Assembly (NCBI RefSeq): GCF_024521635.1
Contig: NW_026250419.1
Span: 558,001 to 622,000, forward strand
Origin: Tricharina praecox
Lineage: Eukaryota
Length of the DNA stretch: 64,000 nucleotides
Reading direction: 5' to 3'
Shown: piece after piece, positions 14,372-39,020 of the stretch
How the letters are laid out: each line of letters starts with the position of its first letter
Numbering within the stretch: position 1 is the stretch's first letter
Position numbers and translations under genes: made by a program
Notes under the pieces: model-generated
The model's database searches: none
The model's input: the letters and a program-made list of their open reading frames with translations, nothing else
Told to the model about the DNA's origin: nothing

Positions 14372-17312
14372 ATGGCGGATCAACAACCGGGCGGACCGAC
14401 GTTGTCTGGAGGAGGAGGGAGTGCAGGCGTGCCCGGAGGGGGCGGCGGGAGTGGAGGTGGTGGTGGAGGTGGAGGGAGTGGTGGTGGTGGTGGTCTCTTC
14501 CAATGCGGCGACTGTGGCCGGTCGTACACCCGTGCCGACCATCTGGCTAGGCATGTCCGCTCTCGTAAGTTTCTTCCTTATTCCCGGAGAGAGATCTCTC
14601 GGTGAGACCTCGCTGATTCACTATCGATACAGATACGCAGGAAAAGCCTTTCCCCTGTACCATCTGCCTCAAGCGGTTTTCACGCGCGTAAGATGTTTCC
14701 CGATCCGTGTTGCACTGGGTGTCGTTGACACGAAGCCCTTTTCCTTAGCGACCTCTTGAAACGACATTTCCTCAACCACGACGAGAACAATGACAGCAAG
14801 CGGCAGCGACGAGCTCGATCACCGACCGCTCCGGGACGAGTAACGCAGGCATGCAAGGCATGCGCAACCGCGAAGTTGAAGTGCGAAGAGGAGAAGCCTT
14901 GCCATCGGTGCGAGCAGAAGGGGATGAAGTGCGAATACGTGCTGCTGGAGGCCGTCAGAAAACTTCCGAAGGGAATCAAACGAGGTACGGAGGATCCGAC
15001 TTACCGGTGAGGTGATTGCGGCACAGGAGTCGAAGCTAACATCTTCAGAGTATGACGATCCTTCGGATGGCGGCGTCTTGCCGAGCCAACTTCCGCTAAA
15101 TCCGACCAGTGCACCGCACACGTTCCATGATGCCAGCCATATCACCACCACCTTTCCTGGAACCCAAGCACCTACCCCCGAAACGATGTCGAATTACTCG
15201 GTGCCGGATCATTCGGGCGAGACACAACAGTATGTGGTGCAGTACGGGGGCGGCTACAGCGGAGATCCGATGCATGCCGCGAATCTCTCGGCGGGACGCA
15301 ACTTTGTGCAAAGCATGCACCACATCACGGCTCGCCATCCAGCGGCTCGGGATCTGCTCAACTTCGGGATGATGAATGACCTGGAGCTTGATGAGATGGA
15401 CTTTGGATTGTTGGATACCTACAACGAGATGTTTGTTGCGCCTGGGGCCATTCCTTTCGACTTTACGTATCCGCACATCCCGGCGCAACACATCACCCAC
15501 CAACCAGAGACTACATCACCTCCACCAGCAGGCACGAAGCAACTCGCGCTTGGTGTAGAAGCGTTCAAGCGATCGCATCTCAGATGGTCTCCTACCCATG
15601 AGAACCGGGGGAATGCGGAGCATGACGGACTATCGATACCGTCCGATGCGAGCCCCCGCATACAAATGAACTGGCGTGCAATTAACCTCCGCTTGGATCA
15701 CAGCGCACGCGATAGAGTATTGGCGGTGGTTCTCTGCATGTGCGATTTCAATAATCGGCTTCAAGCAGTTTCCAGCTTTCCCTCCGCGGAGATGCTGGAT
15801 AACCTTATGAACCTTTATTTTCATTATCAGCGGGAGTCGTCCGGCGCTTGGATACATCCTGCTACCTTTAACCCTTCCACTGCGAGCCCTGAGCTGTTGA
15901 CCATCATCGTCGCTGCCGGCGCTGTCTTGACCCCGGTTCCCGCTATACGGAAATTGGGATACTCATTGCAGGAAGCAGTCCGTAGTTCGCTCGGTCAATT
16001 GTTCGAATCCAACAACTCTGCCACGAGGAACCTAGAGACACTGCAAGCCTTCATGTTGCAGCTCGAAATCAGTCTCTGGTCAGGCAACAAGCGGAAGATA
16101 GAAATCGCCGAGTCTTTCCGGCAGACCATCACTACGATGCTGCGTCGGGCTGGAAAATTCAAGCGGGCCCAGTATCCTCCTGTGATGCTGCACCCCGGTG
16201 ACAACGGCGAGATATTGGATTCACGGTGGAAGCAGTGGATCGAGCAGCAGCATTATATACGGCTGGTATTCCAGCTCTTCCAGCACGATTGCCAGGCATC
16301 GATGGCGTATCTCGTCAACATCATCATCTCCTATGCCGAGCTATCACTCCCACTCCCCGAGAGCCGCCAGCTATTCTTTGCAGCTACAGCTCAAGATTGG
16401 AAGGCTTTGTACCTCTCAACCCCTGGGAACCCCAACATAAGGACTCCCAGCTTTACCGACAGTATCCATGACTTCCCCGACCTCAATATCCCCCAAAACT
16501 TCAACAGTGGCCGCATAGACCTTGAATTGACGGAACTCAACACCCTATTCGGCCTTTGGGGTCAACTATGGGATTACCGTCAGCGCCAGTCAATCCGACG
16601 TACGGCGGAACGCCCCACCTCACCGCAGCCCGACCAACTCAACAAGAACCTACTCAGCCCGCGTTACCAGTCGCCGCACTGCCGCTTCCTGCTCGAGCTT
16701 CTCGGCATGACCCTCTACGTCTCACTCGAGGACCTGCAGGCGTTTGCGGGCAAGGAAGACGAGGAGGAGAGCATGCGCGCCTACCCCATCGTGCAGGGCT
16801 GGATCCAAGGCCCCGAGTCACGCCTGGCGGTATGGCACGCGGGGCAGCTGCTGCGTGAAGCACGCACCTTTGGGCCCGGCGGCCTCCGCGAGTTCTGGGC
16901 GGTCGGCGTGTACCACGCCGCAATCACGCTGTGGGCATACGGCGTGCTCCTGAAGCTGCCGGCCCCGCAGATGATGGACTCGGGGATGACGCACAGCAGC
17001 GGCAGCAGCAACAGCGCCTCCGCCACGCCCGAGGCGCATCTCGCCGGCGGCAGCGACGAGGACGTCGTCTACATCGACGGCGTCGACACTCAAGCGGCCG
17101 GGCGCTTCATCGACTACAACCGTGGACGCCCGATGATCTGTGGCTTCACCGGCGAAGTCGACGTGCGCTCCCCCGGGCGCGTAATGAAGGCTGTCGCCGA
17201 GCTGCTCCGGAGGAATCATGCCGTCACGTCGGAGGAAACTACGCCGCCGCCGCTGGTGGAGAATCTCGTCGAGCTGATGGAGGAGCTGGGCGAAGCGGCG
17301 GATGCGCATTGA
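14372..17312 (+). CDS. Transcription factor with two C2H2 zinc fingers, a Zn(II)2Cys6 cluster and a fungal TF middle-homology region
   Basis: FQCGDCGRSYTRADHLARHVRSH|TQEKPFPCTICLKRFSRADLLKRHFLNH after splicing introns 14565-14632 and 14688-14748; ACKACATAKLKCEEEKPCHRCEQKGMKC; intron 14985-15048; long exon with WIHPATF and LPLPESRQLF motifs. Confidence 0.93.
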
Positions 17313-20664: not shown

Positions 20665-23039
20665 ATGCGAATGCGCACCTCTCTTGAGCTACCACAATCA
20701 CCTTCGCCGTCCCCGCCACTACACCGCAGCTTGGGAATGCAAACCTCGCACAAACAACCATCGCTGCCGCTGAATCGAATGATGCATCTGCCCACACCGC
20801 CCCCCTCCTTCTCGTCGGAGACCGACTGCTCGCCGCACGATGCGACCAGTGGGTCGGCGCTCTGGTCCAGCTCGACGCCAACCAACAGATCGCACGACGA
20901 CTTGCGATCATCACCCACACCTATGCGCCTGCCGCCACTCTCGGACCAGGAGGTCGCCCGTCGCCACCTGCGACTGTCCATGTCGCCGGAACCCGACTTT
21001 CCTCGACTGCCGCCGCCTGGCTCCAATCGCGCGACTCCGGATAGAGAGATGGGCGGCCGCGACTCGAGGGAGTCGTCGCCGGCTACGGGGCGGACTCCGT
21101 CGCCAGACCCCTTTGACGGCGATCGGAGTAGGAGCAACTCGCCGGAAGACACAATGCGACCGCCACCGCTGCGGGCGCTGACGGAACAGAACTTGAACGC
21201 CAAGAACCATCATCGTGCGGGCTCCAACGGCGCGCGCTCCGTCATGTCGGCGTATGATATGATTACGAGCTACATTGGAAGCGACGGAAACCCGCAGCCG
21301 AATAAGCGCCGAGGGACGTCGACTGGGTTCCAGCCGAACGCGGGACTGTCGAAGCCGATCACGCCGAGCTTTATCAGGGACTACAACTCCACTACATCCG
21401 TACGAAACCGACGGGCGAGTAATGCGCGTGACTTGTCGCCGGAGATTGAGGACAACAGGAGAGAAGAGGGACAGGGGTCGCGCATATTCCAGGGCAGCTT
21501 GGTGCTGTCGAATACCTACGGGAGTGACGGAACGGCGACGAGCCAGTCGGGGGATATGTTGCGCATGAGCGAGCTGTCCCGACAGCGGCAGGCAATGGGT
21601 TGGAACTATTGTGGTGGGTAGCAGCAATTCCCTTCCTTTCCTCTTCCTTTCCCGCTCCCTGCACTTTCACGCCTCCTCCCCCCCCCCCCCCCCCCCCCCC
21701 CCCTCCCCCTCCCTTCATTTCTTGTACTGAGCCCCTCTGTTATATCTTTCAGCCCAAATCCCCGAAAGCCGTGTTCGCCATGAAATCATCACCTCCCCGA
21801 CCGCGTCATTGACCCATGAAGGAAAGGAATCTCTGTCCACAGTTTACTACAAGGAGTTTTCGTCACAGATCGATGCATTCGCGCGGAACCTCAAGAAGCC
21901 AGTCGTCACGTTTGTGCTCGTCATGATAATACCAGTGCTATTATCGCTGGGAACATCACTTTTCACTGGATCGCGGAGCACTGTGGGGACGAGTAACTCG
22001 ACATTCGGCGGCAACATCGATTTCCCGACGCTCATGAGTATCGAGGCATCATTCGAGCGGGTGGTGGACTCCGCGGCCGGTGGTTCGGAACTCGCGCGAT
22101 CGCTAAAACAGAGCGAGATGGCAGTAGCGGACCTCAGCACGGTAGTCAAGTACTCGGATCTCAACTGTCGCGAGACATTGAGCACGCGGTTGGAGCAATT
22201 CGCCATCGACGCACGCGACAACGTAGTGGGGCTGCTGGAGTTTTCCGCAAAAGTTGGGGGAGTTCTAGACGAGTAAATTTGGCTTCCTCCCCACGCCCCG
22301 TGTGAAACATGGGCGCTGATCTTGCGGGCTATGTAGGCTACTGTCGGTGAACCAATACGCGCTGCGCGAATTGACGTCATTACACATGGAGCGTCTCGAG
22401 GGCCGAAAGACACTGCTGCAGCGCATACCCTTCCCGTGGCCGCTCTCGTCGCTCGCGCCGTCGCCCGCCACCATCGCCCGCGCACGCCTGGCACAGACAT
22501 TCGACACGGCGGTCGAAGTGCTCGAAACCAACCTGCGGCTACTGATCGCGCACGGCACGATAATACAAGCGGGGTTGATGGGGCTATCGCAGCAGAACGG
22601 GCCGATCCGCACGGAGATCGTGCGGGAATTCGCCGACATACGCCGCGGCGAGGCCGAGGCCATGTCGTCGCTGTGGGCGCGCATCAGCACGCACTCATCG
22701 AAGCGCCAAAACTTTAAGGAGAACGAGCGCCTGCTGCGCGAAATCAACGTGTACCACGATAAGGCGCGCGGTTACGTCGAGGTTACCCTGCTAGAGCTCG
22801 GACGCATGACGAGCGAGCTCGATAATCTCCGCCGGAGAGTCGCGCAGCCCCTCCTCGTCGAACGGAAGACCCAGGATATAGGCATGCAGGATCAGGTCCA
22901 TGCTATACAGGGCAGCGTCGATGCCCTCCTCAAGAAACGAGGCGATAGAGATGAGAGGCAGCGCATGTGGAATCGGATTATTTTGGAGGGCGCGGTGCGC
23001 GGTCAGGAGGGGGGGACCGTCGAGGGCCCGAGGTTTTGA
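20665..23039 (+). CDS. Hypothetical protein: disordered Ser/Pro/Arg-rich N-terminus, one transmembrane helix, C-terminal helical/coiled-coil domain
   Basis: ORFs 20665-21621, 21809-22276 and 22347-23039 join in frame via introns ~21614-21752 (contains a poly-C tract) and 22273-22336; TM segment VVTFVLVMIIPVLLSLGTSLF. Confidence 0.75.
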
Positions 23040-24320
23040 CAGCACAGCACATAGGCTGAGGTTGTTGGGCCGGGGGGAGGGGGGTGGATAAGGGTGGATA
23101 AGAGTGGATAAGGAAGAGCCAGGGTGAATATGCGGGGAGGCCTGGGAGGGAGGGAAGGGGAAGGGGCAGGATGGCATGGATGGCGTTCTCTTTTTTTTAC
23201 TTTTCCTCCCTTTTTTATTTTTTCTTTATCTGGATTCTGTTCAAGGCTGGCTGGCTGAATTTTTGTTCTGTTCCGTTTCGGTTGGCGTTTTTTCTTTCTT
23301 TTTCTGTCTTCTTTCTTTTCATTTCCTGTCTTCTTTCTTTTCATTTCCTGTTTCCGGTTTGGTATGAGTATTTCTGGGAGTACATTGGGGGAGTACGTTG
23401 GTGTCGGGTCTTGTATCGGGTCTTGTATCGGGGTTTTTCCGGGGTTCTGGCTTCTAGCTTTTTGGGCTTTTTTGAGCTCACTCACCAACTTCGGAGTTTC
23501 TCTCTTTTCTTGTGTACTTTTTGGCGGGGCTGGGTTTTTGTTCGGCAGCAGAGGGGGAGAGGGGAGGGGGGGGGGGGGGGGGGATATGGGGGGTTATTGG
23601 TGTTTTTTGATTCTGGGCTGGAGGGTATCTGTTTGATTTTTGTGTTTCGGTTTTTGTGTTTTGTGTTTGGTTTTGTGGATGGGTTGATCTGGATGGTGTC
23701 TGGATGGTTGGGGTATCTGGATGGTGGGAAATGTATGTACACACCTCTCCTCGTCTCTTTCCGTCTCGTCTCGTCTCTTGCCTTTGCCTTTATTTTGTGT
23801 TTTGCCTTTGCCTTTGTTGTTAGTGTCTGTCTTCTGCTTTTGTTTTTTGTTTTTTATTTGCTGTTTACTGTTGAGTCTTGTTTGTTTTGCTTTTGGGCCT
23901 GCTAAAGCGTGTTTTCCGTTGGGGGAATATTACCAATTGGAGGGGAATGTATTTGGAGCGGCGGGAAGTGATGGCGCACAGGGGATGAGGGGCGGTGGAT
24001 TCAATTCTTGGAAATAATATACATACGGCTTCTTTCTAGTGTTACCTACTTGAAAATTCCCTTGGGCGGGTGGAGATGTGAGATGTGCGGAGATGTGAGA
24101 TGTGCGGAGATGTGAGATGTGCGCGGGTTGGTTGTGTGCGCGGGTGGGTTATGTGCGGGGGTGGGTTATGTGAGTGCGGTGGAGATGATTGCGGTGATGG
24201 GGTGGGAATCATGCGATGCGGGGATGGGATGGGATGCGGTGGTATGCGGTGGAACGGTGAAGGCTCAAGGGGCGGTGATCCTGGGAGGTGGGGGAGCAAA
24301 GTGGGGGGAGGGGAATAGGT
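23040..24320. repeat. Strand-asymmetric T/G-rich low-complexity tract with microsatellites
   Basis: TTTG/TTTC runs, GGATAAG(A/G)GT x3, TCGGGTCTTGTA x2, 17-bp GGAGATGTGAGATGTGC x3 at ~24072-24122. Confidence 0.8.
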
Positions 24321-27810: not shown

Positions 27811-29480
27811 TTACAACTTCTCGTCGGCGATGCTGCTGTGGCTGGCGCGCTTGCGGCTGACGTCCTCGTCGCTGGACAGGCCGGAGGCCATGGGCGCCTC
27901 GAGGTCGGGGACGGGGTTGGAACCCTTGTCGGTGAGCTTCCAGGCGTGGGTGGTCTCGTGGAAAAGGGTGTCCAGCTCCTCGAGCGTCTTGCCGGCAGTC
28001 TCGGGGTACAGGAAGTAGATGATCGGGACGAAGGCGGCGTTGAAGCACATAAAGATGAGGAAGAACTTCCATCCGAGGTTCTCGGCACCGAGAGGAGTGA
28101 TCTTGACGACGACGACTAAGGAGATGTTAGTGTGAGGCTCACAGAAAGAACAGCGGGGGGGATCTTACAGTTCCAGAGCCAGTTAGCAGAGGTAGCAAGA
28201 GCAGTTCCCTGGTTGCGGAAACGGAGCTCGTTGATTTCGGTGGGGTACAACCAGGGAGTAGCGACCCAGGCGAAACCGGAGTAGGTGGCGATGTAGACCA
28301 TGACAAAGACGACTCCGGCAGTACCGGCGGCCTTGTTGTTATCCTCGACTGAGAGCTTGACACAGACAGCGATGACGGCCATGGCAATAGCCTGTCCAGC
28401 GGCACCGAGCATCAAAGGCTTGCGACGTCCCCAGTTGTCGATGAAGAGAATAGGGATAAAGGTGAAGACGAAGAAAGTGAGACCAGTGCATCCACCGACG
28501 ATCAGAGACAGCTCACGGTCGAGGGAGAGAACGTTCTCGAGGAGGTAGGCGGAGTAGAAGATAACGGCGTTGATACCAGTCAGCTGCTGCATCATCTGAA
28601 TGCAGTAACCCAATGCCAGACGGCGGAAGGTCTGCTGCTTTCCACCCTTGAAGTAATCCCTCCAGACGACAACACCGTTGTTGTTGGCCATGTTCGCGGC
28701 CAGAGCAGACTCGATTGCACGGTACTGCGACTGGACCTCGGTGGAGTGCTTGTCCTCACCCTCGAGAGCGGCAAGGACCTCGAGGGCCTCTTCCTTCTGG
28801 TCGTTGGCCATCAGGTAACGGGGAGACTCAGGAAGACCGAAGAGCATGACGGCGGTGATGGCACCGAAGACGACCTGGAGGAGAATGGGAGTGCGCCACT
28901 GGAGGGTCGCGTCCTCAGAGAACGAGGTACCGTAGGTGATCCAGTACGAGATGGTGATACCGATGGTGATGAACCATCCCTCGATGGAAATCATACGTCC
29001 ACGGGAGCGGGCTTTGGTGGTTTCGGCCTGGTACATGGGTACAGTTGAAGTGTTGATACCGTTACCGACACCGGTGACAATACGACCGACGATCATGTGT
29101 GCGACACCGAAAGCAGAGGCCTGGAGAGCAGTACCGACGAGCATGATAGCCAAACCGAGCCAGATAGCCTTCTTGCGACCGAGACGGTCACCGATGTAGA
29201 ATGTGAGAATAGCGCCGAGAAAACATCCGATTTCGTAGATAGCAGTGATTGTTCCAATTGTAGTAGTGTCCGGGTTGTTGAATGAATCTTAATGAGAATG
29301 TCAGTCTTGAGATCACTACGAGCGCGAGGGAGAATGGCGCGTACCCTTGAATGCAGAGCCTCCGATGAGACCGGCGAAAACTCCCTGATCGTATCCGAAC
29401 AACAAGAATGCGGAAGACGAGGCGACCGACACCATGATTCGCAGGGCGGCACCCCGCGCATTTCCCCAAGTCCGTACCAT
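27811..29480 (-). CDS. MFS sugar porter family transporter (candidate levoglucosan/anhydrosugar permease)
   Basis: Exons 29480-29345, 29287-28169, 28115-27811; motifs LLFGYDQG, DRLGRKK, GRIVTGVGNG, PMYQAE…RGR, PESPRYL, QQLTGINAVIFYS, DNWGRR, WLYPTE, PETAGKTLEE. Confidence 0.95.
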
Positions 29481-31065
29481 TGTTGTGAGAGTAGCGAGAG
29501 ACTGTTCTTGTCGACTGTTCGTGCTATGTGATGGAAACCGAGCAGTGGCCGCGAACACTGGATGTGGATGGTGATGATGAGAAGCCCAGGGTTGGAGGAC
29601 TCACGAACTTCTTATATCCAGAGGAGGTGAAATCCCTTTGCCCGGGTAGCTGCGATGGAATTGGCGAAGGATTCAAGTCTTCGCTGCATGAATATTCGGT
29701 TCCCCATAGTTAGTGTGGCGCGGCCTGGTCTGGCTGGTTTGGCTGGTCCTGGTTGTGGGGACGGTCATTGTGGGGACTAGCTAGCGGCGAGAACCCATTT
29801 CCCTCCCCACCGCTTGCCTCCACACGAAACCAACCAAGAGTGGGTGCGGGGCGCTTGTCTGGGGTAATCGCTAAACCCGTAAGAGCTCAAGCGGATTACG
29901 GGGAGTCCTTCGGGATTTCCGATGTGTCCGTCAAACTGAAACCGTGCGCCCGATCCGGCAACCAGACTTCTACCACAGCTGCGAACGGTACGACCGTCCT
30001 GATGATAGCGTAACGGCCAGCTGGTAGAGTGCTGAAGGGCACGAAGAAGCAAAATCCATGCTTCCGAACGTACCCCGAATGATCGCGTGAGTACGGTAGA
30101 GTTGGGACGATGTCGGTTTTCTGCACGCTATGCACGAGGGGTTTGCCGTGAGAGCGCGAGCCTGACCTGACCAACCGCTAAGGGTATGTGCCAGACCGTT
30201 GGAGCGTTGGAGATCACATGGCAGCTGCAAGCTATGCCTTGACGGCCCTTCACCATGGGTCGACCAGACGCTCCTTTGTGGGCTGCATGGCGCGGAAGAA
30301 TGGATGATCCGCCGTGCGAGGGCATCGCGAGTCGCGATTTTCGACGCGGTCGTTGTCGCGGTCAAACTTCAACATCGTCAACCTCATCGACGGAGAACAG
30401 CTTTGCGGGGTCTTCAGGCATAGTAGCGCCATACCCAGAAAAAGCACTTACCAAGTTCCATGGCAGCGCGCTCCAGATTCCCAATCATCCCGCCTTCCCC
30501 GCCCGTCCGTGGGCCGTCTCCACAGTGATCCGAGTGTTTGTCGACTCTTGGTGTTTGTCGCGTGTCTGTCCAATGAGAGCAGGCATCCCGATCGGAATCA
30601 CGAGATTCATCATGTGCGGCTGGTGGTTTTCTGGAAAAAACATCTAGGCCTGTCGGGTTGAGCCTCGATCGCTGGTCGGGGAGATGGTCGGCTTTTCCGA
30701 TGCGCCCCTGGTGCCGTGGCAACCCCAACCCCACACTTCTCGCGTGGCCATTAACCACTGCGTAGCGCGACTGCAGGGAATTTTTCCGCCCGGGGAGTAA
30801 TACGGAGAAAGATCGCCATCTCATAATCGTCATCAGAATCTTTCTTATCGCCGGGGAAATCAGCGGCGTTCAGACGGCCGTGAAGAGCGGGGCAGCGGCG
30901 AGAGAGTGGAGCCTCCAAGAGCTGGGGTGCTGAGCTCCGCAGCTCGCCATATTAATAGGGAGGCTTCTCGTTCGTCCTCCTCCTCCTGCTCCACAAAGCT
31001 GTACGATATCGTGAACTGTGCAGACTCTTACTACCTATTCTACCTCCATTACCCACTTCACAAAC
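29481..31065. promoter_or_regulatory. Bidirectional promoter between sugar porter and levoglucosan kinase
   Basis: Head-to-head genes; TATA-like boxes at ~29612-29617 (minus strand) and ~30950-30957 (plus strand); CGG-N5-CCG elements at 29911-29921 and 30689-30699; SYGGRG clusters at 29755-29864 and 30887-30940. Confidence 0.65.
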
Positions 31066-32470
31066 ATGTCTACCACCAACGGAACCACTCCCAGCGGAGG
31101 CCTTTCCCTTCGCGTGCTCGGATTGAACTCCGGCACCTCCATGGACGCCGTCGACTGTGTCCTCTGCCACTTCACTCAGAAATCCCCCTCCGAGCCCCTC
31201 CACCTCAAGATCCTCAAGTTCGACGACATTGAGCTTCCCCAGAGCATCAAGAAGCCGGTCTTCAACATCATCCGCTCCAACAAGACCTCCCCCGAGGAGC
31301 TCTGCCAGATCAACGTCCAGCTCGGTGACGTCTTCGCCGACTCCGTCGAGGAGTTCTGCCGCCGCCACGGTTACGATCTCGAGAAGGACATCGATGTCGT
31401 CGCTTCTCACGGACAGACCATCTGGCTCCTGTCCATGCCCGCCGACGGTCAGACCCGATCCGCCCTTACCATGGCCGAGGGCTCCATCCTTGCCGCCCGC
31501 CTCGGCAAGACGGCCGTTACCGACTTCAGAATCTCCGAGCAGTCGGTCGGACGCCAGGGTGCCCCCATGATCGCCTTCTTCGACGGATTAGTCCTCCAGC
31601 ACCCCACCATTCCCCGCGCTTGCCAGAACATCGGTGGTATCGCCAACGTCTGCTTCATCCCACCCACTTCCCAGGAGAACGGCGGTATGTCCGGAATCTA
31701 CGACTTCGACACCGGCCCAGGTAACGTAAGTAAAAATGACTCCCAGCTCAAGATTGAAGCTTCTCCTCTTCAGAAACTGACGAGCTATACAGATGTACAT
31801 TGACTTCGCCATGCGTCACTACACCGAGAACAAGATGGAGTACGACAGAGACGGACACTTCGGTGCCGCCGGCACTGTCAGCCAGGAGATCGTCGACGAG
31901 TACCTCAAGACCCTCCCCTACTTCTCGCTGCCTCCTCCCAAGACCACCGGCCGCGAGCTTTTCGGCGACCAGCAAGCGTACGAGCTCATCCAGCTCTGCG
32001 AGTCGAAGGGTCTCTCCCCCCAGGACACCGTCGCTACCATCACCCGCATCACCGCGCAGGCCGCAGTCGAGGCGTACCGCAAGTACGGACCTAAGACCGC
32101 CGACGGCAAGCTCGACATCAAGGAGATCTACATGTGCGGAGGAGGAGCCTACAACCCCAACATCTGGAAGTACATGGAGGAGCAGTTCAAGCCCGACGGT
32201 GTCCGCATCACCATGCTCGACGAGGCCGGTGTTCAGGGCGGTGCCAAGGAGGCCGTCACCTTCGCGTTCCAGGGTATGGAGGCCATCCTTGGACGGCCCC
32301 TGGTTGTCCCCCAGCAGGTGGAGACCGATACCCCCGTCATTGTCGGCAAAGTCAGCCCTGGAAAGAACTACAGGGAGCTGATGAAGATGAGCGTCGGTTT
32401 CGGTGGACACGTTGAGGGAGACTATCTGCCTGCTGTGCGGGAGATGGTCCTCAACTCTGTTGCCGAGTAA
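31066..32470 (+). CDS. lgk: Levoglucosan kinase (anhydro-N-acetylmuramic acid kinase AnmK family)
   Basis: Exons 31066-31725 and 31793-32470; [40 protein letters not shown]…[70 protein letters not shown]. These match, from memory, the fungal (Lipomyces starkeyi-type) levoglucosan kinase more closely than bacterial AnmK. Confidence 0.9.
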
Positions 32471-34658
32471 ACCAGCACTCACCTCATAAAATAATGTCTT
32501 GTTTATTTCGATAGATTTTTTTGGGTTGGCCGAAACATGGGGATGATGTAAATATTGAAATGTGCGGCCAGAAGCGGAGGATATTTTCTTTTTTCTTTCT
32601 TTCTTTTCTTGGGTGTTTTGTATAGATTTGAACTGGGGGCATGATGTATGATGAAATAGAAACGACGTTCACAGTACCTTTTCAAGTTTTTTTTAGTAAA
32701 TTATGCATCGTGATGTTTCCTTTTGCGAAAATCTGTACGACTCTTTCCTCGTGGTCAATCGCGACCGCCACCTCCGTCAGCGGCGACTGTGGGGTGCAGA
32801 GAACATGAATCGTGCGACATAATCGAGACTCCAATTATCGCGGCGCGTCATGCAATGGCAGTCCACACCGGCGTCCTGAAGTATGAAGGGAAGAGCATCG
32901 ACGCGTTTGTGTGTTAAATCCGACGCTCCGAGATGCTAGATGAGTTGACTAGTCTCGAATCGTTTCCCGATGCATGCAGTAGCGGCGTTGCTGGGCCAGG
33001 TGAGTGCTTAGAGGTTAAGTATGAAATAGGGGCATGGCCCAAGACTCCAAGATGCCGAGAAGATAAACAACCTGAGCAGTGAGGTGTTTGTCGGGCGGAA
33101 GATGTCGCTCCTATGATTCGTGGGAGAGGCTGTTTGTAGAGTAGAGTACTCTAGCTGTGGATCAGTCACTTGGAAGTTGGGACTTGATCGATCACTCGGC
33201 AATTCAGTTCAGTTCAGGGGAAGTGATGCGATAGATCTACGATTCGGACGGATGGCTGATACATAGGTAGCTGATAGCTCTGATGTATAGTGAGACAGTC
33301 GAGCGTACTAGTAGATGTCAGCTGAGGAGCCACGTTGAGCGATTTCGGCCCTTCGTTTTTGCGGTCATTCACAGATTATCACTCAGGTCAGCTCATCCTA
33401 GCAAGCCATCAACAGCAATCCGAGGTGACACTAGTCGATGGGCGGCGATAGACTGGGATAAGGTACGGGCAAGGGCTCAAGAGAGAAGGAAGGCCGAATC
33501 AGGGAATGGGGAACCAGAACGGTGCTCGGAGAGGGATGAAGAACTGGATGCAATGGTGACGATAGTTAAGCGTGGAGCGGTTTCTAGGCCCGCTCGTTCT
33601 CACTTTCCTTCCTCCCTTCTTTCTTTCTGGCCTCCCTTCTATCTCTCGTTCTCTCTGTATGTAGTTTTCTAGCGGCAATCGAGAGAGGGATCGGGCGGAG
33701 GGCAGAAGGGAGCCCGCTCCGAGCTTGTGGCCAGAGTTCGGAGACAGTGGGCCGGAGTCGGACACGTAACTGTCTTGATCTGATAAGATCGAATGAAATG
33801 ATGATTAAATGGAAAGATAAAAAACAAACACGAGATGCACCGGCGTACGTTGGCGGGCCGCGGCTGGCCGTCTAGTGTGAAATATTCTTGTCCCTCGTAC
33901 CCGTCGGCACGTCGGCATTGATGAATACGGGTGCAGAGACAAAGAATGTACCCGAATACAGACCCAAAGATGCCTACATGCCCGGTTTAAATGCAGTCCT
34001 ACAAGGTTTTCATTAGCATAACACCTACATATGGATACGACCGACATCTCATATGTGCCGCGGCTCGATCGTGTGAGGGGCCCAAGTCTGCTTACTTCCG
34101 AGACATTTGTCATTCAACCCTTGGCAGTCCTCACATGCTGATACTCCGCTAGTGATACCGTATCGAGGCCTCATCGTGATCAACTATAGAAGGTTATATG
34201 TCCCGAATGTTTCGCCGAAAATGAAGCCGTATGGCGCAGGTAAACGGGATTCAAAATCGGTACTTGGTAGGGCGAACGCAATACGTCCGGACATGTCACC
34301 GAGAGTCGCTGCTGTCGTGGCTTTTTTTTTTTCACTCGCCCCGTTACGCTAGTCACACAGCACCGGAGCCGCACCTTAAGTGAACGTCTCCTTCACGCGT
34401 CCCCCGCCCTTCGCTTCCCCATCAAATCGATCCCAACCCCACAACGCAATGACGCTTAAATACTCCGCATTCCCCATACCAAGTATCTAGCAGCAAAAAG
34501 CAGACCATTGTGGCCAGCCTCCATGCATAATCCCAGCATTGACCCAGCTTGAGCCCAGACAGCCTTATGCGATCTCCACCAGTCCGCGCTCCCCCCCCTT
34601 CAGAAGTGTCGCGTTTATCGCAGCAGCCTCCTCATCGAATCAATATCCCGCGCTCGAG

Positions 34659-37148
34659 ATGACCTTGAACTACCGCCTACACCAACAGCTGCCAACAGAA
34701 AATAGTGCTCCGCCTTGCGCCCCTACCGCCAACATGACCACCCCCTCCTCGAATCCGGATGACAGCTCAAACTCCGTCGCGGGCACCGAGCGTGAGCGAG
34801 AGCCGCCACAGCACAAGTCGAGCCCGGATCACCGGGGTATAAAGCGAACAAAAACCGATGGTAGGTAACATGCCTAGTCCATTCGACCTCGCCGCCCGTA
34901 ACCCCTATCTCGTGATGGCGGTTCTCATCGAAATCAAGCACACGCCGAATCTTGCCACAGCGTCACTAAATGTGCGTGTCTCCGGCTACAGGGAAATCCA
35001 CTACAGCTCCGAGAAAGAGAGTTCCCACCGCATGCGAGAACTGTCGACTGCGGAAGACGAAATGTGATGGCGTCAAGCCGGTGTGTGGGAGTTGTGCGAG
35101 GATGGGGGTGGAGTGCGTTGGGGGCGACGAGAAGGAGTTGAGCTTGTACGTTGACCTCTCTGACGAGCTTACTTCCTCGAGTGCATAGCTGATTCGTGTC
35201 GTTGCATGTCAGGTACGAAAGGACAAGCTTGCGTATTCTCGAGGGTATCGACCGCATCGAAGGAATCCTTCGCACTCAGAACGCCCCGCCACCTAGTCCT
35301 GCCGGCACGGCCAACAACCATTGCGCTGCTATTACTACAGTGAACACTATGTCAAGTCCTGCCGCTGCTCTTAGCAACCTCTGCGCAGCAGCAGCAGCAA
35401 ATTCAATGTCTCCCCCCGGGGTATCACCTGCCATGGCGGTGTCACCCGCTCTCTCCTACCAAAGCACGGCCAGCATCGTGACTGCGATGCACGAGGCTCC
35501 GAGTCCCTTGCCAGCGATTCACACACTTTTTGACTCCAACTCGACCATGCCGGGCACAAGCAGGATCAAGACGCCATCAAAGCTTGACCGGATTCTAGCA
35601 TGGAGTGTCTTTCCCAGGACGTCGCCCTATTGCGGCCTTGTCTCCAATGGAAACTGGAGAGAGAGCCTGGGGGAGGAGATGCATCTGGGGCTGGACGAGG
35701 TGAGAGTATTACACATGCGGTATCTCGAGCGGTTTCACCCCAACTACCCCATAATAAACATCGAATCTCTCAACAAGGCAATATGCTCGACGTTGGAGGG
35801 CAAAGGATGCGGGTGGGATTCCGAGGCCTGCTTGATGCTCCTTTGCTGCGCGCTTGGAGCGGTCGCAGACGATTATTTCGAGCACTTTTATAATCGAGAG
35901 ACGACGAGAGATCCACAGAGATCGCGGCTCGAGAGGATAGCGAGGGCGGAGGGGTACTGGTGTATGGCAAAACGTAGATTGGGGATTGTCATGTTGGAGG
36001 AAACGGAGTTGGCGGGGCAATGTCTCGCTCTTGCTGGGTACGATAGCTCTCCATCGCCCACAACGTGTTTTCTAATCCATATCCACCACAGGTTTTGGTA
36101 TCTATACCAGCTAGATCCTATATCCGCCTACAAGATGTTCCACTCCGCCTGCTTGAGCTGGCAAACCCTTCACCTGGCACAGGGTCGCTCGGTCGACGTC
36201 TCACGGGTGGAGGTCGATGGAGTCAGCTCGGGAATGAGCCACCCTCAATACCTCAAACAACGCCTTTACTGGACTTGCCTCAAAGCGGAGTTTGAACTCC
36301 GCGCAGAGCTATCCCTTCCCGTGCCCACAGGAGCACAGCTAGAGTACCCCCTCCATTTCCCTAGTCCTCCAGCGTCATTTGGTCCTGCGCCAGGAGGCGC
36401 CGTCTACTTGGACACCGAACGACTATGGTATTTCTACACCGCCGAAATCTTTCTCCGCCGACTCCACAACCGTCTCGTAGACGAAGTCACCTCCTTCGAA
36501 GCCTACCTCCTTGACCCACAAATGACGCTAACCGAAAAGCGCCTCACCTCTCTCATCACCATCGTGCGAGAATACGAAGTCTACGTGTCGCAATGGCACG
36601 CCTCTCTCCCCGTCTCCATCCGCTTCCCAGACCCAGCCATATCACAACAACCACTTCCCGACGAGCGCCAACAATTCATCCGCAAACGCTTTTTGGATTG
36701 CCACGAGCTGCTCTATCGCCCCTTCCTCAACCTTACTCTCAACTACCCCGGCTGGCCAGGCTACATCGTCGCGCCACACCCAAAATCATCCCGCAATCAA
36801 CCGCGGGACCCCGTTAAACTCGAAGCCGACGTGCGCTTGTTCTCCACACTCGCACTGCAATACACATACTGGAGCATCGCGGCCGATCGCGGCGTCTGGT
36901 TCCAGCACTCCACCACCGTATGGCGTGACGTACGGAATCGCCTCGCAGATGTGTTAGTCCTCCGCGCCGCAGCAAAGGCGGGCATGGAGCTGCCAATGCA
37001 CTGGGAGGAGGTCGTGGAGGATGCTGAGGCTGTGCTGCTCTATTGGTGTACCGGCGATGGGGAGGATGAAAGCGTTCGTGACCGTAGGAGGAGGGCCGGA
37101 CTGAAGGGGTGTGCGGAGGTAGTTACGTGGGCGAGGGAGATTATGTAA
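34659..37148 (+). CDS. Zn(II)2Cys6 transcription factor
   Basis: PRKRVPTACENCRLRKTKCDGVKPVCGSCARMGVEC; introns 34861-34991, 35146-35212 and probably 36038-36091; middle-homology region with FHPNYPII, RLYWTCLKAEFEL and WYFYTAEIFLRRLHNR. The start codon is approximate. Confidence 0.9.
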
Positions 37149-37651: not shown

Positions 37652-38003
37652 CATATAGCCACTCTATCTGCACGAACATTGCTCTGCTGGCCCTCACGAT
37701 CCTACATGTGAATCTTTCGGCCGGTTTGCAGAGTTCCGCAAAGCCGGCAAGTCCATGCAGATCACGGGAAACCCATATCTCGCAATCCCTAACCCTCTGT
37801 CGACTCTCAAGGTGTCCTGCAAAGGGAATGTGCACCCTAAAGTGATCTGCAGCTCGGTTGTCAATCCCGATGCAGGGCGTACCGCGATGCGTTGTTCGGT
37901 CTTGGGTGACGATATGGTATAACTGTTATCTTCCCCTCCTCTCCGCTCCCTCTCGCTCTTTCTCTTCCTCCAAAGAAAACGGACACAGCAGACAGATAGA
38001 AAG

Positions 38004-39020
38004 ATGGCACCGCCAGTTCCGCCGCGCATGCCCACCCGCTCCGGGCCTCCGCCGCCTCTCCCACCGCGCCCACAGCCACCGCCAATCCCACCAAAATACA
38101 CGCGGCCTGCACCACCACCGCTAGCACCAGCACAACCACCAGCGACACAATCCCACCAATACAACCACCTAGCACCCGACCAAGCCGATTTCTTCCTCGC
38201 CAACGGCTACGTGCACCTTCCCAGCGTCTTCGATCCCGCCAAAGCCGCACCATGGCTATCAACACTGTGGCCGCGCCTCGGCTACTCGGCAGACGACCTT
38301 AGCACATGGAGCAAAGAGCGGATCCACCTTCCCGCGACGACGCGGGAGCTCGCATCGACATTTGCGCCACTAGCGTGGGGGGCGATGTGCGATCTTCTCG
38401 GCGGCGAGGACCGGATTGACACGGCCACCGGCTCGTGGAGCGACGCCTTCATCGTCAACCTGGGCGTGCCCGGCGCCGAGCCGAAGGAGGGGACGAACCG
38501 CGACGGGAGGAAGATGTGGGATTGGCATGTGGATGGGGATTTCTTCACGCATTTCTTGGACTCGAGGGAGCAGGGGCTGCTCGTCGTGCCGCTGTTCTCG
38601 GATATTGTTGAGGGGGGCGGCGGGACTGTTGTTGCCCCAGAGAGCATCGGCGTCATCGCCAGGTATCTCCACGCTCATCCGGGAGGCGTGCCGCCGGGTT
38701 TTGGAGGCGGCAGGTGGTTCATCGAGCAGGCTCATGCATGCTCGGAGTTTGTGGAGGTTACTGGGAAGGCCGGCGACGTGGTGCTCATGCACCCGTTTAT
38801 GCTCCATTCGGCGAGTAGGAATTTTTTGAGGACGCCGAGGGTGATCACGAATCCGAGGGTCGGGTTGAAGCGACCGTTTATGTATGGGCGGGATGGGAGT
38901 GCCCTGAGTTTGGTCGAGAGGAAGACGCTGCTGGAGTTGGGGGTGCAAGGGGAGAAGCTTGATTGGGAGATTACAGGTGAGAGAAAGGGGATTGTGCCGG
39001 AGCGAGAGAGGAAGAAGTAG
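38004..39020 (+). CDS. Phytanoyl-CoA dioxygenase (PhyH)-like Fe(II)/2-oxoglutarate oxygenase with proline-rich N-terminus
   Basis: FFLANGYVHLPSVF, HxD motif WDWHVDGD, GGGTVV, GKAGDVVLMHPFMLHSASRN (distal His), PRVITN; intronless 338-aa ORF. Confidence 0.85.
   Translation: MAPPVPPRMPTRSGPPPPLPPRPQPPPIPPKYTRPAPPPLAPAQPPATQSHQYNHLAPDQADFFLANGYVHLPSVFDPAKAAPWLSTLWPRLGYSADDLSTWSKERIHLPATTRELASTFAPLAWGAMCDLLGGEDRIDTATGSWSDAFIVNLGVPGAEPKEGTNRDGRKMWDWHVDGDFFTHFLDSREQGLLVVPLFSDIVEGGGGTVVAPESIGVIARYLHAHPGGVPPGFGGGRWFIEQAHACSEFVEVTGKAGDVVLMHPFMLHSASRNFLRTPRVITNPRVGLKRPFMYGRDGSALSLVERKTLLELGVQGEKLDWEITGERKGIVPERERKK

What the first reader, a model, noticed from the sequence alone, without database searches (positions are those of the whole stretch)
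27811..37148. Putative levoglucosan (pyrolysis anhydrosugar) utilisation gene cluster: transporter, kinase and Zn2Cys6 regulator
Seen: a sugar porter and an AnmK-family kinase head-to-head across 1.6 kb, followed directly by a Zn2Cys6 factor, the typical layout of a fungal catabolic cluster. Established: fungal levoglucosan kinase converts 1,6-anhydro-beta-D-glucose to glucose-6-phosphate in one step, so uptake plus kinase is a complete pathway, and levoglucosan arises from cellulose burning. Inference: a self-contained inducible module for using fire-derived carbon. I know of no characterised fungal levoglucosan transporter or regulator, so those two components may be undescribed. An alternative substrate is anhydro-MurNAc or another anhydrosugar.
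Basis: partly seen in the sequence, partly recalled or inferred. Interest (0 to 1): 0.9.

Follow-up and report, generated by a model that had tools for sequence, protein, structure and literature searches.

The report
Fungal levoglucosan uptake-kinase-regulator gene cluster
A fire-following cup fungus keeps a sugar transporter, a levoglucosan kinase and a DNA-binding regulator side by side, and the same arrangement recurs across many fungi, which points to the still unknown natural importer and switch for this smoke-derived sugar.

Summary
Window 27811-37148 holds three expressed genes whose spliced products are identical to annotated Tricharina praecox proteins: a sugar porter, a kinase and a Zn2Cys6 factor.

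The kinase matches the solved Lipomyces starkeyi levoglucosan kinase at E 5.7e-160, against 6.6e-37 for bacterial AnmK.

Linkage is conserved. In 11 annotated Pezizales assemblies of six genera the orthologues carry consecutive or near-consecutive accession numbers. Porter and kinase are also adjacent in Saitoella. Among metagenome contigs from other ascomycete classes, 19 of 25 distinct kinase loci have a divergently oriented sugar porter upstream. Twenty of 47 loci also carry a Zn2Cys6 factor. Those porters and factors belong to other lineages than the window's.

A repeated site, CGGGGAR-N5-CGG, occurs four times in the shared promoter here and four times in an orthologous promoter.

Induction by levoglucosan is untested. 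In the one relevant dataset the Pyronema orthologues are not induced on char or burned soil.

My searches found no described fungal levoglucosan transporter or regulator.

Verdict: a real, conserved catabolic module; its substrate and regulation are inferred.

The parts
27811..29480 (-). Sugar porter (MFS, Sugar_tr) CDS of 519 aa. Exons 27811-28115, 28169-29287, 29345-29480. Candidate levoglucosan/H+ importer.
   Evidence: Pfam PF00083 E 4.9e-90. The spliced CDS equals P0121, annotated as T. praecox 'sugar transporter'. Introns are confirmed by RNA contigs. The closest solved structure is the Arabidopsis STP10 sugar/H+ symporter, E 2.5e-41.
29481..30612 (-). Long 5' UTR of the porter transcript, containing an 85-nt intron at 30367-30451. 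RNA contigs end at about 30525 (X2) and 30612 (X1).
   Evidence: Spliced contigs of runs X1 and X2, with adapter letters at their loose ends (tables 5, 7, 8). Contig ends are not mapped transcription starts.
29481..31065 (.). Divergent intergenic region between the porter ATG and the kinase ATG (1585 bp); shared promoter.
   Evidence: Coordinates. The same head-to-head layout is seen in 26 of 31 informative metagenome loci.
29899..29913 (+). Site 1 of the repeated motif CGGGGAR-N5-CGG (a CGG-N9-CGG direct repeat). It lies inside the porter 5' UTR.
30677..30691 (+). Site 2 of the motif, between the 5' ends of the two transcript contigs.
30791..30805 (+). Site 3 of the motif, inside a 21-nt block that is 20/21 identical in the orthologous promoter of locus L034.
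30852..30866 (+). Site 4 of the motif, 61 bp after site 3. The same 61-bp spacing is seen in L034.
31066..32470 (+). Levoglucosan kinase (AnmK/LGK family) CDS of 445 aa. Exons 31066-31725, 31793-32470. Transcript contigs span 30778/30801 to 32634/32663.
   Evidence: Pfam PF03702. PDB levoglucosan kinase 4yh5 E 5.7e-160 over residues 10-441, against AnmK 3cqy E 6.6e-37. The CDS equals P0254. The intron is confirmed in three runs.
34659..37148 (+). Zn2Cys6 transcription factor CDS of 745 aa. Exons 34659-34860, 34992-35145, 35213-36037, 36092-37148. Transcript contigs span 34422/34439 to 37189/37294.
   Evidence: Pfam Zn_clus E 5.2e-11 at residues 80-114. The CDS equals P0301. Three introns are confirmed by RNA contigs. 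The C-terminal 516 aa resemble Fungal_trans regulators by language-model features (0.97) and predicted fold (TM 0.71-0.77).

Best explanation
This is a three-gene catabolic module for levoglucosan (1,6-anhydro-beta-D-glucopyranose).

Proposed mechanism:
1. The sugar porter imports levoglucosan, probably as a proton symporter. This step is inferred.
2. The kinase opens the anhydro ring and phosphorylates it to glucose 6-phosphate, which enters glycolysis. This is established for close homologues and inferred here from about 63% identity.
3. The Zn2Cys6 factor binds the four CGGGGAR-N5-CGG direct repeats in the shared divergent promoter and drives both genes when the substrate is present. This step is inferred.

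The module is inherited as a unit in Pezizales. Other ascomycete classes have a module of the same layout, built from a different sugar-porter lineage and a different Zn2Cys6 lineage.
For: Kinase identity:
- P0254 matches L. starkeyi levoglucosan kinase structures at E 5.7e-160 over nearly the full length. The best bacterial AnmK scores 6.6e-37.
- The aspartate in the DFDTGPGN stretch, and that stretch itself, are invariant in 26 fungal homologues.

Linkage in named genomes, read from consecutive accession numbers or locus tags:
- T. praecox: porter KAI5849172, kinase 173, factor 174.
- Morchella importuna: LAJ45_09842, 43, 44.
- M. sextelata: H6S33_011780, 81, 82.
- M. snyderi: KAI5844619, 20, 21.
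- M. conica: RPB11333-36.
- Pyronema domesticum: KAI5799448, 49, 50.
- P. omphalodes: KAI5816613, 14, 15.
- Wilcoxina mikolae: KAF8250487, 488 and 490.
- Geopyxis carbonaria: factor KAI5791935, kinase 936.
- Trichophaea hybrida: factor KAF8540225, porter 226.
- Saitoella coloradoensis: porter YB2330_004936, kinase 004937. S. complicata: GAO48298 and 299.

The factor stays linked although it has diverged to 38-40% identity.

The flanks are not collinear. In the two Pezizales metagenome loci, only porter and kinase match window ORFs.

Linkage outside Pezizales:
- Of 47 fungal kinase loci from metagenomes, 31 have at least 1300 bp upstream. Of these, 26 show a Sugar_tr gene upstream on the opposite strand: 23 full hits and 3 fragments.
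- After merging loci with at least 90% kinase DNA identity, there are 25 lineages: 19 with a porter, 2 with a fragment, 4 with none.
- 13 of 13 porter pieces tested are Pfam Sugar_tr.
- With the same model, only one porter gene not next to a kinase was found in 516,391 bases.
- A mutually homologous Zn2Cys6 + Fungal_trans factor lies in 20 of the 47 loci.

Cis element:
- The pattern gives 5 matches in the 64-kb window against 0.49 expected. None of 100 shuffles reached 5. Four of the five lie in the 1.6-kb intergenic region.
- The same pattern hits 4 times in L034, all in its porter-kinase intergenic region. It hits only twice in the other 79 loci.

Expression: all three genes are transcribed and spliced.
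Against: - No experiment links any of the three proteins of this clade to levoglucosan.
- In P. domesticum RNA-seq, the kinase (gene_4101) has similar values on sucrose, water, burned soil and 750 C char (CvS_FC -0.98, p.adj 0.0056). The porter (gene_4100) is listed among genes down on char only (CvS_FC -2.06, p.adj 7.5e-5; soil versus sucrose -0.44, not significant). So pyrolysed substrates did not induce them. The factor's row was not visible because the stored file is cut.
- The motif was derived from these same promoters, so the window statistic is partly circular. Only the L034 replicate is independent.
- Two of the four sites lie inside the 5' end of the kinase RNA contig, and one lies in the porter 5' UTR.
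- The factor's position varies, and it is absent within 10 kb of the kinase in L034.
- Some lineages keep the kinase alone: L020/21, L029, L036, L040, and L028 with only a porter relic.
- The porter keeps the ordinary sugar-porter motifs and is annotated by sources as STL1-like or as a myo-inositol transporter.
Confidence: 0.62

Rival explanations
1. The module is a real uptake + kinase + regulator unit, but its natural substrate is another 1,6-anhydrosugar. Candidates are mannosan, galactosan, or cell-wall-derived anhydro-amino sugars such as anhMurNAc or anhGlcNAc. Levoglucosan would then be only a side activity.
For: - The family is named after anhMurNAc kinase (Pfam PF03702).
- A 2023 paper, of which I read passages, notes that many fungi encode both levoglucosan-type and anhydroMur-type kinases and may recycle bacterial peptidoglycan (PMC10570956).
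- The genes are not induced by char or burned soil in Pyronema.
- A second set of fungal kinase loci, at about 50-57% identity, exists in metagenomes.
Against: - The window's kinase is far closer to the characterised L. starkeyi levoglucosan kinase than to any AnmK: E 5.7e-160 against 6.6e-37.
- Enzymes of this fungal clade from Aspergillus, Rhodotorula and Lipomyces are reported to have levoglucosan kinase activity (PMC9476349 Background).
- The partner is a neutral-sugar porter of the Sugar_tr family, not an AmpG-type muropeptide permease.
Confidence: 0.15
2. Only porter and kinase form the functional unit. The neighbouring Zn2Cys6 gene regulates something else and is linked by descent within Pezizales, not by function.
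For: - The factor sits on different sides of the pair in different genera, judging by accession order.
- It is not within 10 kb of the kinase in L034.
- No factor was found beside the Saitoella pair in my look-ups.
- No expression data for the factor were visible.
Against: - The orthologue stays within 0-3 gene models of the kinase or porter in 11 annotated assemblies of six genera, while diverging to 38-40% identity.
- It stays next to the kinase in Geopyxis, where the porter orthologue is missing.
- An unrelated Zn2Cys6 lineage is linked to the kinase in other classes, in 20 of 47 loci. Independent recruitment is what functional coupling predicts.
- A CGG direct repeat of the kind such factors bind (recalled) is repeated in two orthologous promoters.
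Confidence: 0.15
3. Chance neighbourhood: three unrelated genes that happen to lie together.
For: Sugar porters and Zn2Cys6 factors are large fungal families, so some adjacency is expected by chance. A second Zn2Cys6 gene lies at 14928-17309 in the same window.
Against: - Linkage recurs in two subphyla and at least four classes.
- 19 of 25 distinct lineages have a porter, against a background of one stray porter in about 516 kb scanned.
Confidence: 0.03

Closest known systems
Levoglucosan kinase of Lipomyces starkeyi (PDB 4yh5, 4zlu, 5bsb and others)
   Same: Same family (PF03702). A full-length alignment at E 5.7e-160, roughly 63% identical. The DFDTGPGN stretch with the aspartate is conserved. 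The expected reaction is the same: levoglucosan + ATP to glucose 6-phosphate.
   Different: The activity of the Pezizales enzyme is untested. The published enzyme was studied in isolation; in the papers I could read, no genomic partners are described.
Fungal substrate-specific catabolic clusters with permease, enzyme(s) and a pathway-specific Zn2Cys6 activator, such as the quinate qa/qut, proline prn and ethanol alc clusters (recalled, not searched)
   Same: Co-located transporter, catabolic enzyme and Zn2Cys6 factor. Divergent promoter with repeated CGG-type sites. Linkage conserved while the flanks change.
   Different: Minimal one-enzyme pathway. No inducer is shown. The transporter and factor lineages differ between Pezizales and other ascomycetes.
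Bacterial levoglucosan dehydrogenase operons (lgdA-lgdB1-lgdB2-lgdC with ABC importers; PMC7676230, search listing and abstract only)
   Same: Dedicated uptake and catabolism genes for the same smoke-derived sugar, encoded together.
   Different: Unrelated chemistry (oxidation, elimination, hydration, reduction), unrelated proteins and operon organisation.
Bacterial AmpG permease + AnmK in peptidoglycan recycling (recalled; AnmK per PMC10570956, passages)
   Same: An MFS importer feeds an anhydrosugar to a kinase of the same family, which opens the 1,6-anhydro ring.
   Different: The substrate is anhMurNAc or muropeptide. The permease family differs. The window's kinase is much closer to levoglucosan kinase.
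Engineered Gal2p Q341A / W455A levoglucosan uptake in S. cerevisiae (PMC9476349)
   Same: A sugar-porter-family protein carries levoglucosan. Transport is shown to limit its use.
   Different: That is a mutated hexose carrier. The window's porter is a natural, kinase-linked protein of another subfamily. Its nearest named relatives are STL1-like at about 42% identity.

Membership tests
Fungal levoglucosan kinase (LGK clade of the AnmK family, PF03702) | Full-length AnmK/LGK domain | tested here: met
   PF03702 covers both exons at profile positions 2-190 and 190-366 of 367.
Fungal levoglucosan kinase (LGK clade of the AnmK family, PF03702) | Closer to a characterised levoglucosan kinase than to anhMurNAc kinases | tested here: met
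   4yh5 at E 5.7e-160 against 3cqy at 6.6e-37 and 8bre at 7.5e-28.
Fungal levoglucosan kinase (LGK clade of the AnmK family, PF03702) | General-base aspartate. That it is Asp212 of the L. starkeyi enzyme is recalled. A protein aspartate as general base is stated in PMC10570956. | tested here: met
   D215 in the window's DFDTGPGN aligns with D212 of 4yh5. It is invariant in 26 fungal homologues.
Fungal levoglucosan kinase (LGK clade of the AnmK family, PF03702) | ATP-dependent conversion of levoglucosan to glucose 6-phosphate | not testable with these tools
   Needs an enzyme assay.
Sugar porter family (MFS, PF00083) | Sugar_tr domain over the whole protein and sugar-porter fold relatives | tested here: met
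   PF00083 at E 4.9e-90 on the main exon plus the C-terminal exon. STP10, GlcP, GLUT3 and XylE score E 2.5e-41 to 2.2e-31.
Sugar porter family (MFS, PF00083) | Transport of levoglucosan | not testable with these tools
   Inferred only from conserved adjacency to the kinase.
Zn2Cys6 (Gal4-type) fungal transcription factors | Zn(2)-Cys(6) binuclear cluster | tested here: met
   PF00172 at E 5.2e-11, residues 80-114 of P0301.
Zn2Cys6 (Gal4-type) fungal transcription factors | Fungal-specific regulatory (middle homology) domain PF04082 | tested here: inconclusive
   No Pfam hit in P0301 or in three orthologues. The Atlas features (0.97) and predicted-fold matches (TM 0.71-0.77) point to Fungal_trans proteins.
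Fungal catabolic gene cluster with pathway-specific regulator | Conserved co-location of transporter, enzyme and regulator | tested here: met
   Consecutive accessions in 11 Pezizales assemblies. 19 of 25 distinct metagenome lineages carry a porter.
Fungal catabolic gene cluster with pathway-specific regulator | Co-induction by the substrate | not tested
   No levoglucosan transcriptome was found. On char, kinase and porter both go down.
Fungal catabolic gene cluster with pathway-specific regulator | Regulator binding sites in the cluster promoters | tested here: inconclusive
   A repeated CGGGGAR-N5-CGG candidate is present in two orthologous promoters. Binding is not shown.

The most novel reading that the evidence does not exclude
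Fungi built a levoglucosan cluster (porter + kinase + Zn2Cys6 factor) at least twice, from unrelated porter and regulator lineages: once in the Pezizales/Saitoella line and once in the other filamentous ascomycetes. The Pezizales-type porter was later passed horizontally into the fire-following mushroom Crassisporium funariophilum. If so, uptake of this smoke-derived sugar is under direct selection in post-fire fungi. Both porter lineages would be the first natural levoglucosan importers, each with its own regulator and cis element (CGGGGAR-N5-CGG versus tandem CGGYTAAR).
Probability: 0.35. Interest if true: 0.8.

Novelty: new member of a known kind. Interest (0 to 1): 0.72.

Why it matters
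Levoglucosan is the main sugar released when cellulose burns or is fast-pyrolysed.

In fungi only the kinase is known. A 2022 study shows that uptake limits engineered yeast and states that mining a transporter is still a challenge (PMC9476349).

Conserved linkage now names concrete candidates:
- two natural porter lineages;
- two regulator lineages;
- candidate promoter elements.

All of these can be tested with ordinary yeast complementation, uptake assays and reporter assays.

For fire ecology, it gives a defined genetic marker for the use of pyrogenic sugar. It also corrects the idea that this trait is special to fire fungi, because the kinase and its cluster are widespread. The one fire-linked twist is the porter of Pezizales type found in a fire-following basidiomycete.

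Tried and rejected
- No whole genome is held for the window, so no genome-wide motif or paralogue search was possible.
- The metagenome record behind L034 could not be extended. The factor fragment P0245, which sits on a contig of the same length, could therefore not be placed.
- tblastn with six Pezizales factor proteins found no orthologue in any of the 47 metagenome loci. It gave only DNA-binding-domain matches in L003.
- Profile-profile comparison of the Pezizales factor with the factor linked to the kinase in other classes matched only the zinc cluster, at probability 27%. I therefore do not call them orthologues.
- I considered that natural levoglucosan porters might lack the bulky Gln and Trp that block levoglucosan in Gal2p (PMC9476349). 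The window's porter keeps the usual QQLTGIN stretch and the Trp before YPTEI. Which Gal2p residues these correspond to is recalled, not aligned, so nothing is concluded.
- The paper on the L. starkeyi kinase structure is not held. Active-site details beyond the aspartate are therefore not used.
- Earlier notes of this scan held nothing on this genome or these proteins. The word search returned only bacterial dehydrogenase-pathway loci.
- No motif of the window's type was found in L028, which also lacks the porter and the factor.
- The RNA contigs cannot rank expression or map true transcription starts.
- Run X3, a metatranscriptome, covered only the kinase. I draw no habitat conclusion from it.

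Full report
WHAT IS THERE

The window is fungal DNA. Stop-to-stop ORFs, Pfam and splice-site reading give three genes.

- A sugar porter lies on the minus strand. Its CDS is 27811-28115, 28169-29287, 29345-29480.
- An AnmK/LGK-family kinase lies on the plus strand. Its CDS is 31066-31725, 31793-32470.
- A Zn2Cys6 factor lies on the plus strand. Its CDS is 34659-34860, 34992-35145, 35213-36037, 36092-37148.

In a script, the spliced CDSs translate exactly to three annotated Tricharina praecox proteins. These are the porter KAI5849172 (P0121, 519 aa), the kinase KAI5849173 (P0254, 445 aa) and the factor KAI5849174 (P0301, 745 aa). They have consecutive accession numbers and sit on one 869,811-bp contig. 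T. praecox is a post-fire cup fungus (PMC12773724, passages).

Contigs of two runs that hold spliced transcripts carry all six coding introns and one further intron of 85 nt in the porter's 5' UTR. The porter transcript reaches about 30525-30612. The kinase transcript starts at about 30778-30801. So the 1585-bp ATG-to-ATG gap is mostly porter 5' UTR, and the two 5' ends are about 170-280 bp apart. Contig ends are not mapped transcription starts.

WHAT THE PARTS ARE

The kinase matches the solved L. starkeyi levoglucosan kinase at E 5.7e-160 over residues 10-441. The best bacterial anhMurNAc kinase scores 6.6e-37. The DFDTGPGN stretch with the aspartate is invariant in an alignment of 26 fungal homologues. 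That this aspartate is the general base is recalled; a protein aspartate in that role is stated in PMC10570956. Proteins of this fungal clade from Aspergillus, Rhodotorula and Lipomyces are reported to have levoglucosan kinase activity (PMC9476349, Background).

The porter is an ordinary member of the Sugar_tr family. Its best solved relative is the plant sugar/H+ symporter STP10, at E 2.5e-41.

The factor has a Zn2Cys6 cluster. Its C-terminal part gets no Pfam hit, but it resembles Fungal_trans regulators by language-model features and predicted fold.

IS THE LINKAGE CONSERVED? NAMED GENOMES

Homologue searches with the main exon of each gene, followed by exact look-ups, show the following.

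- The three orthologues carry consecutive accession numbers or locus tags in T. praecox, Morchella importuna, M. sextelata, M. snyderi, M. conica, Pyronema domesticum and P. omphalodes (strain CBS 100304 shows porter CCX08469 and factor CCX08471).
- In Wilcoxina mikolae they lie within four consecutive numbers.
- In Geopyxis carbonaria the factor and kinase are consecutive. The best porter hit there is only 42% identical and lies on another contig.
- In Trichophaea hybrida the factor and porter are consecutive. No kinase appeared among the 120 rows listed, which does not prove absence.
- In the yeast-like Saitoella (Taphrinomycotina) the porter orthologue (65% identity) and the kinase (70%) are adjacent in two species.

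Adjacency here is read from accession order and shared contig lengths, not from coordinates. The order implies that the factor sits on the kinase side in Tricharina, Morchella and Geopyxis. It sits on the porter side in Pyronema, Wilcoxina and Trichophaea.

The factor orthologue group is confined to Pezizales in my searches. There were 10 hits at E<=1e-10. In an exhaustive profile search, scores fall from 1000 bits or more to 297 bits. The next hits are paralogues in Geopyxis (on other contigs), Rhizina, Clonostachys, Colletotrichum, Ilyonectria and Fusarium.

IS THE LINKAGE CONSERVED? METAGENOME CONTIGS

One scan with an alignment of 26 fungal kinases returned 80 loci. Forty-seven encode fungal-type kinases at 48-89% identity. 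Thirty-three encode bacterial AnmK at 32-39% and were left out of all counts below.

I searched six-frame ORFs with an HMM built from the porter hits.

- Sixteen of the 47 loci have under 1300 bp upstream of the kinase and were left out.
- Of the 31 others, 26 show a sugar-porter gene upstream on the opposite strand: 23 substantial, and 3 fragments only (L024, L025, L028). Five show none (L020, L021, L029, L036, L040).
- After merging loci whose kinase DNA is at least 90% identical, there are 25 lineages: 19 with a porter, 2 with a fragment and 4 with none.
- Thirteen of 13 porter pieces tested are Pfam Sugar_tr.
- With the same HMM, the only porter not next to a kinase in 516,391 scanned bases is one gene in L026. 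The window itself has no other porter.
- Judged by best kinase match, the porter-bearing loci resemble Helotiales, Aureobasidium-like and other Dothideomycetes, Penicillium, black-yeast lineages and Pezizales.
- A mutually homologous Zn2Cys6 + Fungal_trans factor (28-48% identity between groups) lies near the kinase in 20 of the 47 loci, on either side and in either orientation.

TWO CLUSTER TYPES

In a tree of porter sequences, the kinase-linked porters of the non-Pezizales loci form their own clade (support 97). It is separate both from the window's clade (Pezizales, Saitoella, three metagenome proteins) and from the STL1-like proteins.

The factor of the non-Pezizales loci shares only the zinc cluster with the Pezizales factor in a profile-profile comparison, at probability 27%.

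The kinase tree broadly follows this split. Pezizales, Saitoella and Trichomonascus form one clade (support 100). The other filamentous ascomycetes form another (support 95).

So the same three-part layout exists with non-orthologous partners. This is what one expects if the partners were recruited for a shared function.

In two Pezizales metagenome loci, nothing but porter and kinase matches the window's ORFs. The linkage is therefore not a by-product of general collinearity.

CANDIDATE CIS ELEMENT

A short-word comparison of the window's intergenic region with that of L034 found a 21-nt block that is 20/21 identical. L034 is a Wilcoxina-like metagenome locus whose kinase is 89% identical to the window's.

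Listing CGG pairs showed a preferred CGG-N9-CGG direct repeat with the consensus CGGGGAR-N5-CGG.

- The pattern occurs 5 times in the 64-kb window against 0.49 expected. None of 100 shuffles reached 5.
- Four of the five lie in the porter-kinase intergenic region, all on the plus strand: 29899, 30677, 30791, 30852.
- In L034 it occurs 4 times, all in the orthologous intergenic region. It occurs only twice in the other 79 loci.
- The last two sites are 61 bp apart in both species.

The pattern was derived from these promoters, so only the L034 result is an independent check.

The non-Pezizales promoters show tandem 8-mers CGGYTAAR instead. The exact CGGYTAARCGG doublet occurs in 7 of 80 loci. 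Six of these lie in or next to the porter-kinase gap, and one lies before the downstream porter of L024. Its likeness to AraR/XlnR-type sites is recalled, not tested.

EXPRESSION AND INDUCTION

All three genes are transcribed.

The only relevant condition series I found is P. domesticum on sucrose, water, burned soil and 750 C pine char (PMC8579045; passages and supplement Table_1).

- The kinase (gene_4101) has similar values in all four conditions (CvS_FC -0.98, p.adj 0.0056).
- The neighbouring porter (gene_4100) is in the sheet of genes down on char only (CvS_FC -2.06, p.adj 7.5e-5; soil versus sucrose -0.44, not significant).

Pyrolysed substrates therefore did not induce them. The two genes moved in the same direction. 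That 750 C char holds little levoglucosan is my inference. The stored table is cut, and the factor's row was not visible.

No fungal transcriptome on levoglucosan turned up.

COMPARISON WITH WHAT IS KNOWN

The kinase is a member of a known enzyme clade. The layout of permease, enzyme and Zn2Cys6 activator is the classic fungal catabolic cluster (examples recalled).

What I did not find in print is a fungal levoglucosan transporter, regulator or cluster.

- Searches for 'levoglucosan kinase' with transporter and fung*, levoglucosan with gene cluster and Aspergillus, 'levoglucosan kinase' alone (49 papers), levoglucosan with pyrophilous, levoglucosan with transcription factor and fungal, and levoglucosan with transcriptom* gave none.
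- PMC9476349 shows that transport limits engineered yeast, and it calls transporter mining a remaining challenge.
- The 2026 comparative genomics paper on pyrophilous fungi does not mention levoglucosan (PMC12773724, term search).

The library lacks most subscription journals, so absence there is not proof.

FIRE ECOLOGY

The kinase is widespread: 3168 proteins at E<=1e-20 among the candidates scored, in many non-fire genera. The module as a kind is therefore not a fire adaptation.

The Pezizales-type porter and factor were found only in Tricharina, Wilcoxina, Trichophaea, Pyronema, Morchella and Geopyxis (factor only), plus Saitoella (porter). Several of these genera are known fire-followers (recalled). 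No Tuber or Ascobolus protein appeared in the lists. These genera are related, and I could not verify which proteomes the collection holds.

One porter breaks the pattern. The basidiomycete Crassisporium funariophilum has a protein 80% identical to the window's porter.

- It falls inside the Pezizales clade with 99/99 support.
- A tree that keeps Pezizales and Saitoella together without it is rejected (p-AU 0.014). This group was chosen after seeing the tree.
- The explanation is either horizontal transfer or contamination of that assembly. Its contig is 1.4 Mb, but I could not see its neighbours.

VERDICT

Shown:
- gene models and transcription;
- kinase family placement;
- conserved linkage;
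- a repeated promoter motif in two species.

Inferred:
- levoglucosan as the porter's substrate;
- the factor as the module's regulator;
- the motif as its binding site;
- inducibility.

I put the whole model at 0.62. It is a new member of a known kind of system. It has practical value as a source of natural levoglucosan importers and of a matching regulator-promoter pair.

Noticed in passing
Protein P0125 (Crassisporium funariophilum KAF8150749), relative of window 27811-29480: A fire-following basidiomycete carries a porter 80% identical to the window's. It nests inside the Pezizales clade (99/99). A tree that excludes it from the ascomycete clade is rejected (p-AU 0.014, post hoc). No Pezizales-like kinase or factor from that species appeared in my lists. 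This is either horizontal transfer or assembly contamination.
   Followed up: partly
Loci L001-L047 (for example L003 5788-11257, L006 2-5315, L012 8101-13725, L017 804-6418): Other ascomycete classes have their own kinase cluster. It has a different sugar-porter clade, and a mutually homologous Zn2Cys6 + Fungal_trans factor placed on either side. Their promoters carry tandem CGGYTAAR 8-mers.
   Followed up: partly
L028 6092-6390 and 6946-8375: A Pezizales metagenome contig keeps the kinase (84% in the best segment). Upstream there is only a relic of the porter's C-terminal quarter. No factor lies within about 7 kb. This looks like decay of the module to the kinase alone.
   Followed up: partly
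Protein P0056 (Lyophyllum shimeji kinase): In the kinase tree this basidiomycete protein sits beside Thermoascus, inside the filamentous-ascomycete clade, not with the other basidiomycetes. This is a possible second transfer. The tree was a quick one with weak local support.
   Followed up: no
window 29481-30612: The porter mRNA has an unusually long 5' UTR of about 1 kb, with its own 85-nt intron (30367-30451). One copy of the promoter motif lies inside it (29899).
   Followed up: partly
window 30974-32660, run X3: A metatranscriptome labelled seawater holds spliced contigs nearly identical to the kinase mRNA only. There is no cover on the porter, and 22 letters on the factor. I draw no habitat conclusion; carry-over between libraries is possible.
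   Followed up: no
window 14928-17309 (+): A second, unrelated Zn2Cys6 + Fungal_trans transcription factor gene lies 10 kb upstream of the cluster (Pfam PF04082 E 1.2e-13; zinc-cluster motif at 14852).
   Followed up: no
window 37923-39020 (+): The gene directly after the factor is a weak PhyH-like dioxygenase (Pfam E 2.3e-4) with a proline-rich N-terminus. In P. domesticum the gene after the kinase is a methyltransferase instead, so this gene does not travel with the module.
   Followed up: partly
window 22001-24000: Strong strand asymmetry in composition (GC skew 0.197, AT skew -0.246), with overlapping long ORFs in several frames and no Pfam hits. This is probably low-complexity or repeat-rich sequence.
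   Followed up: no
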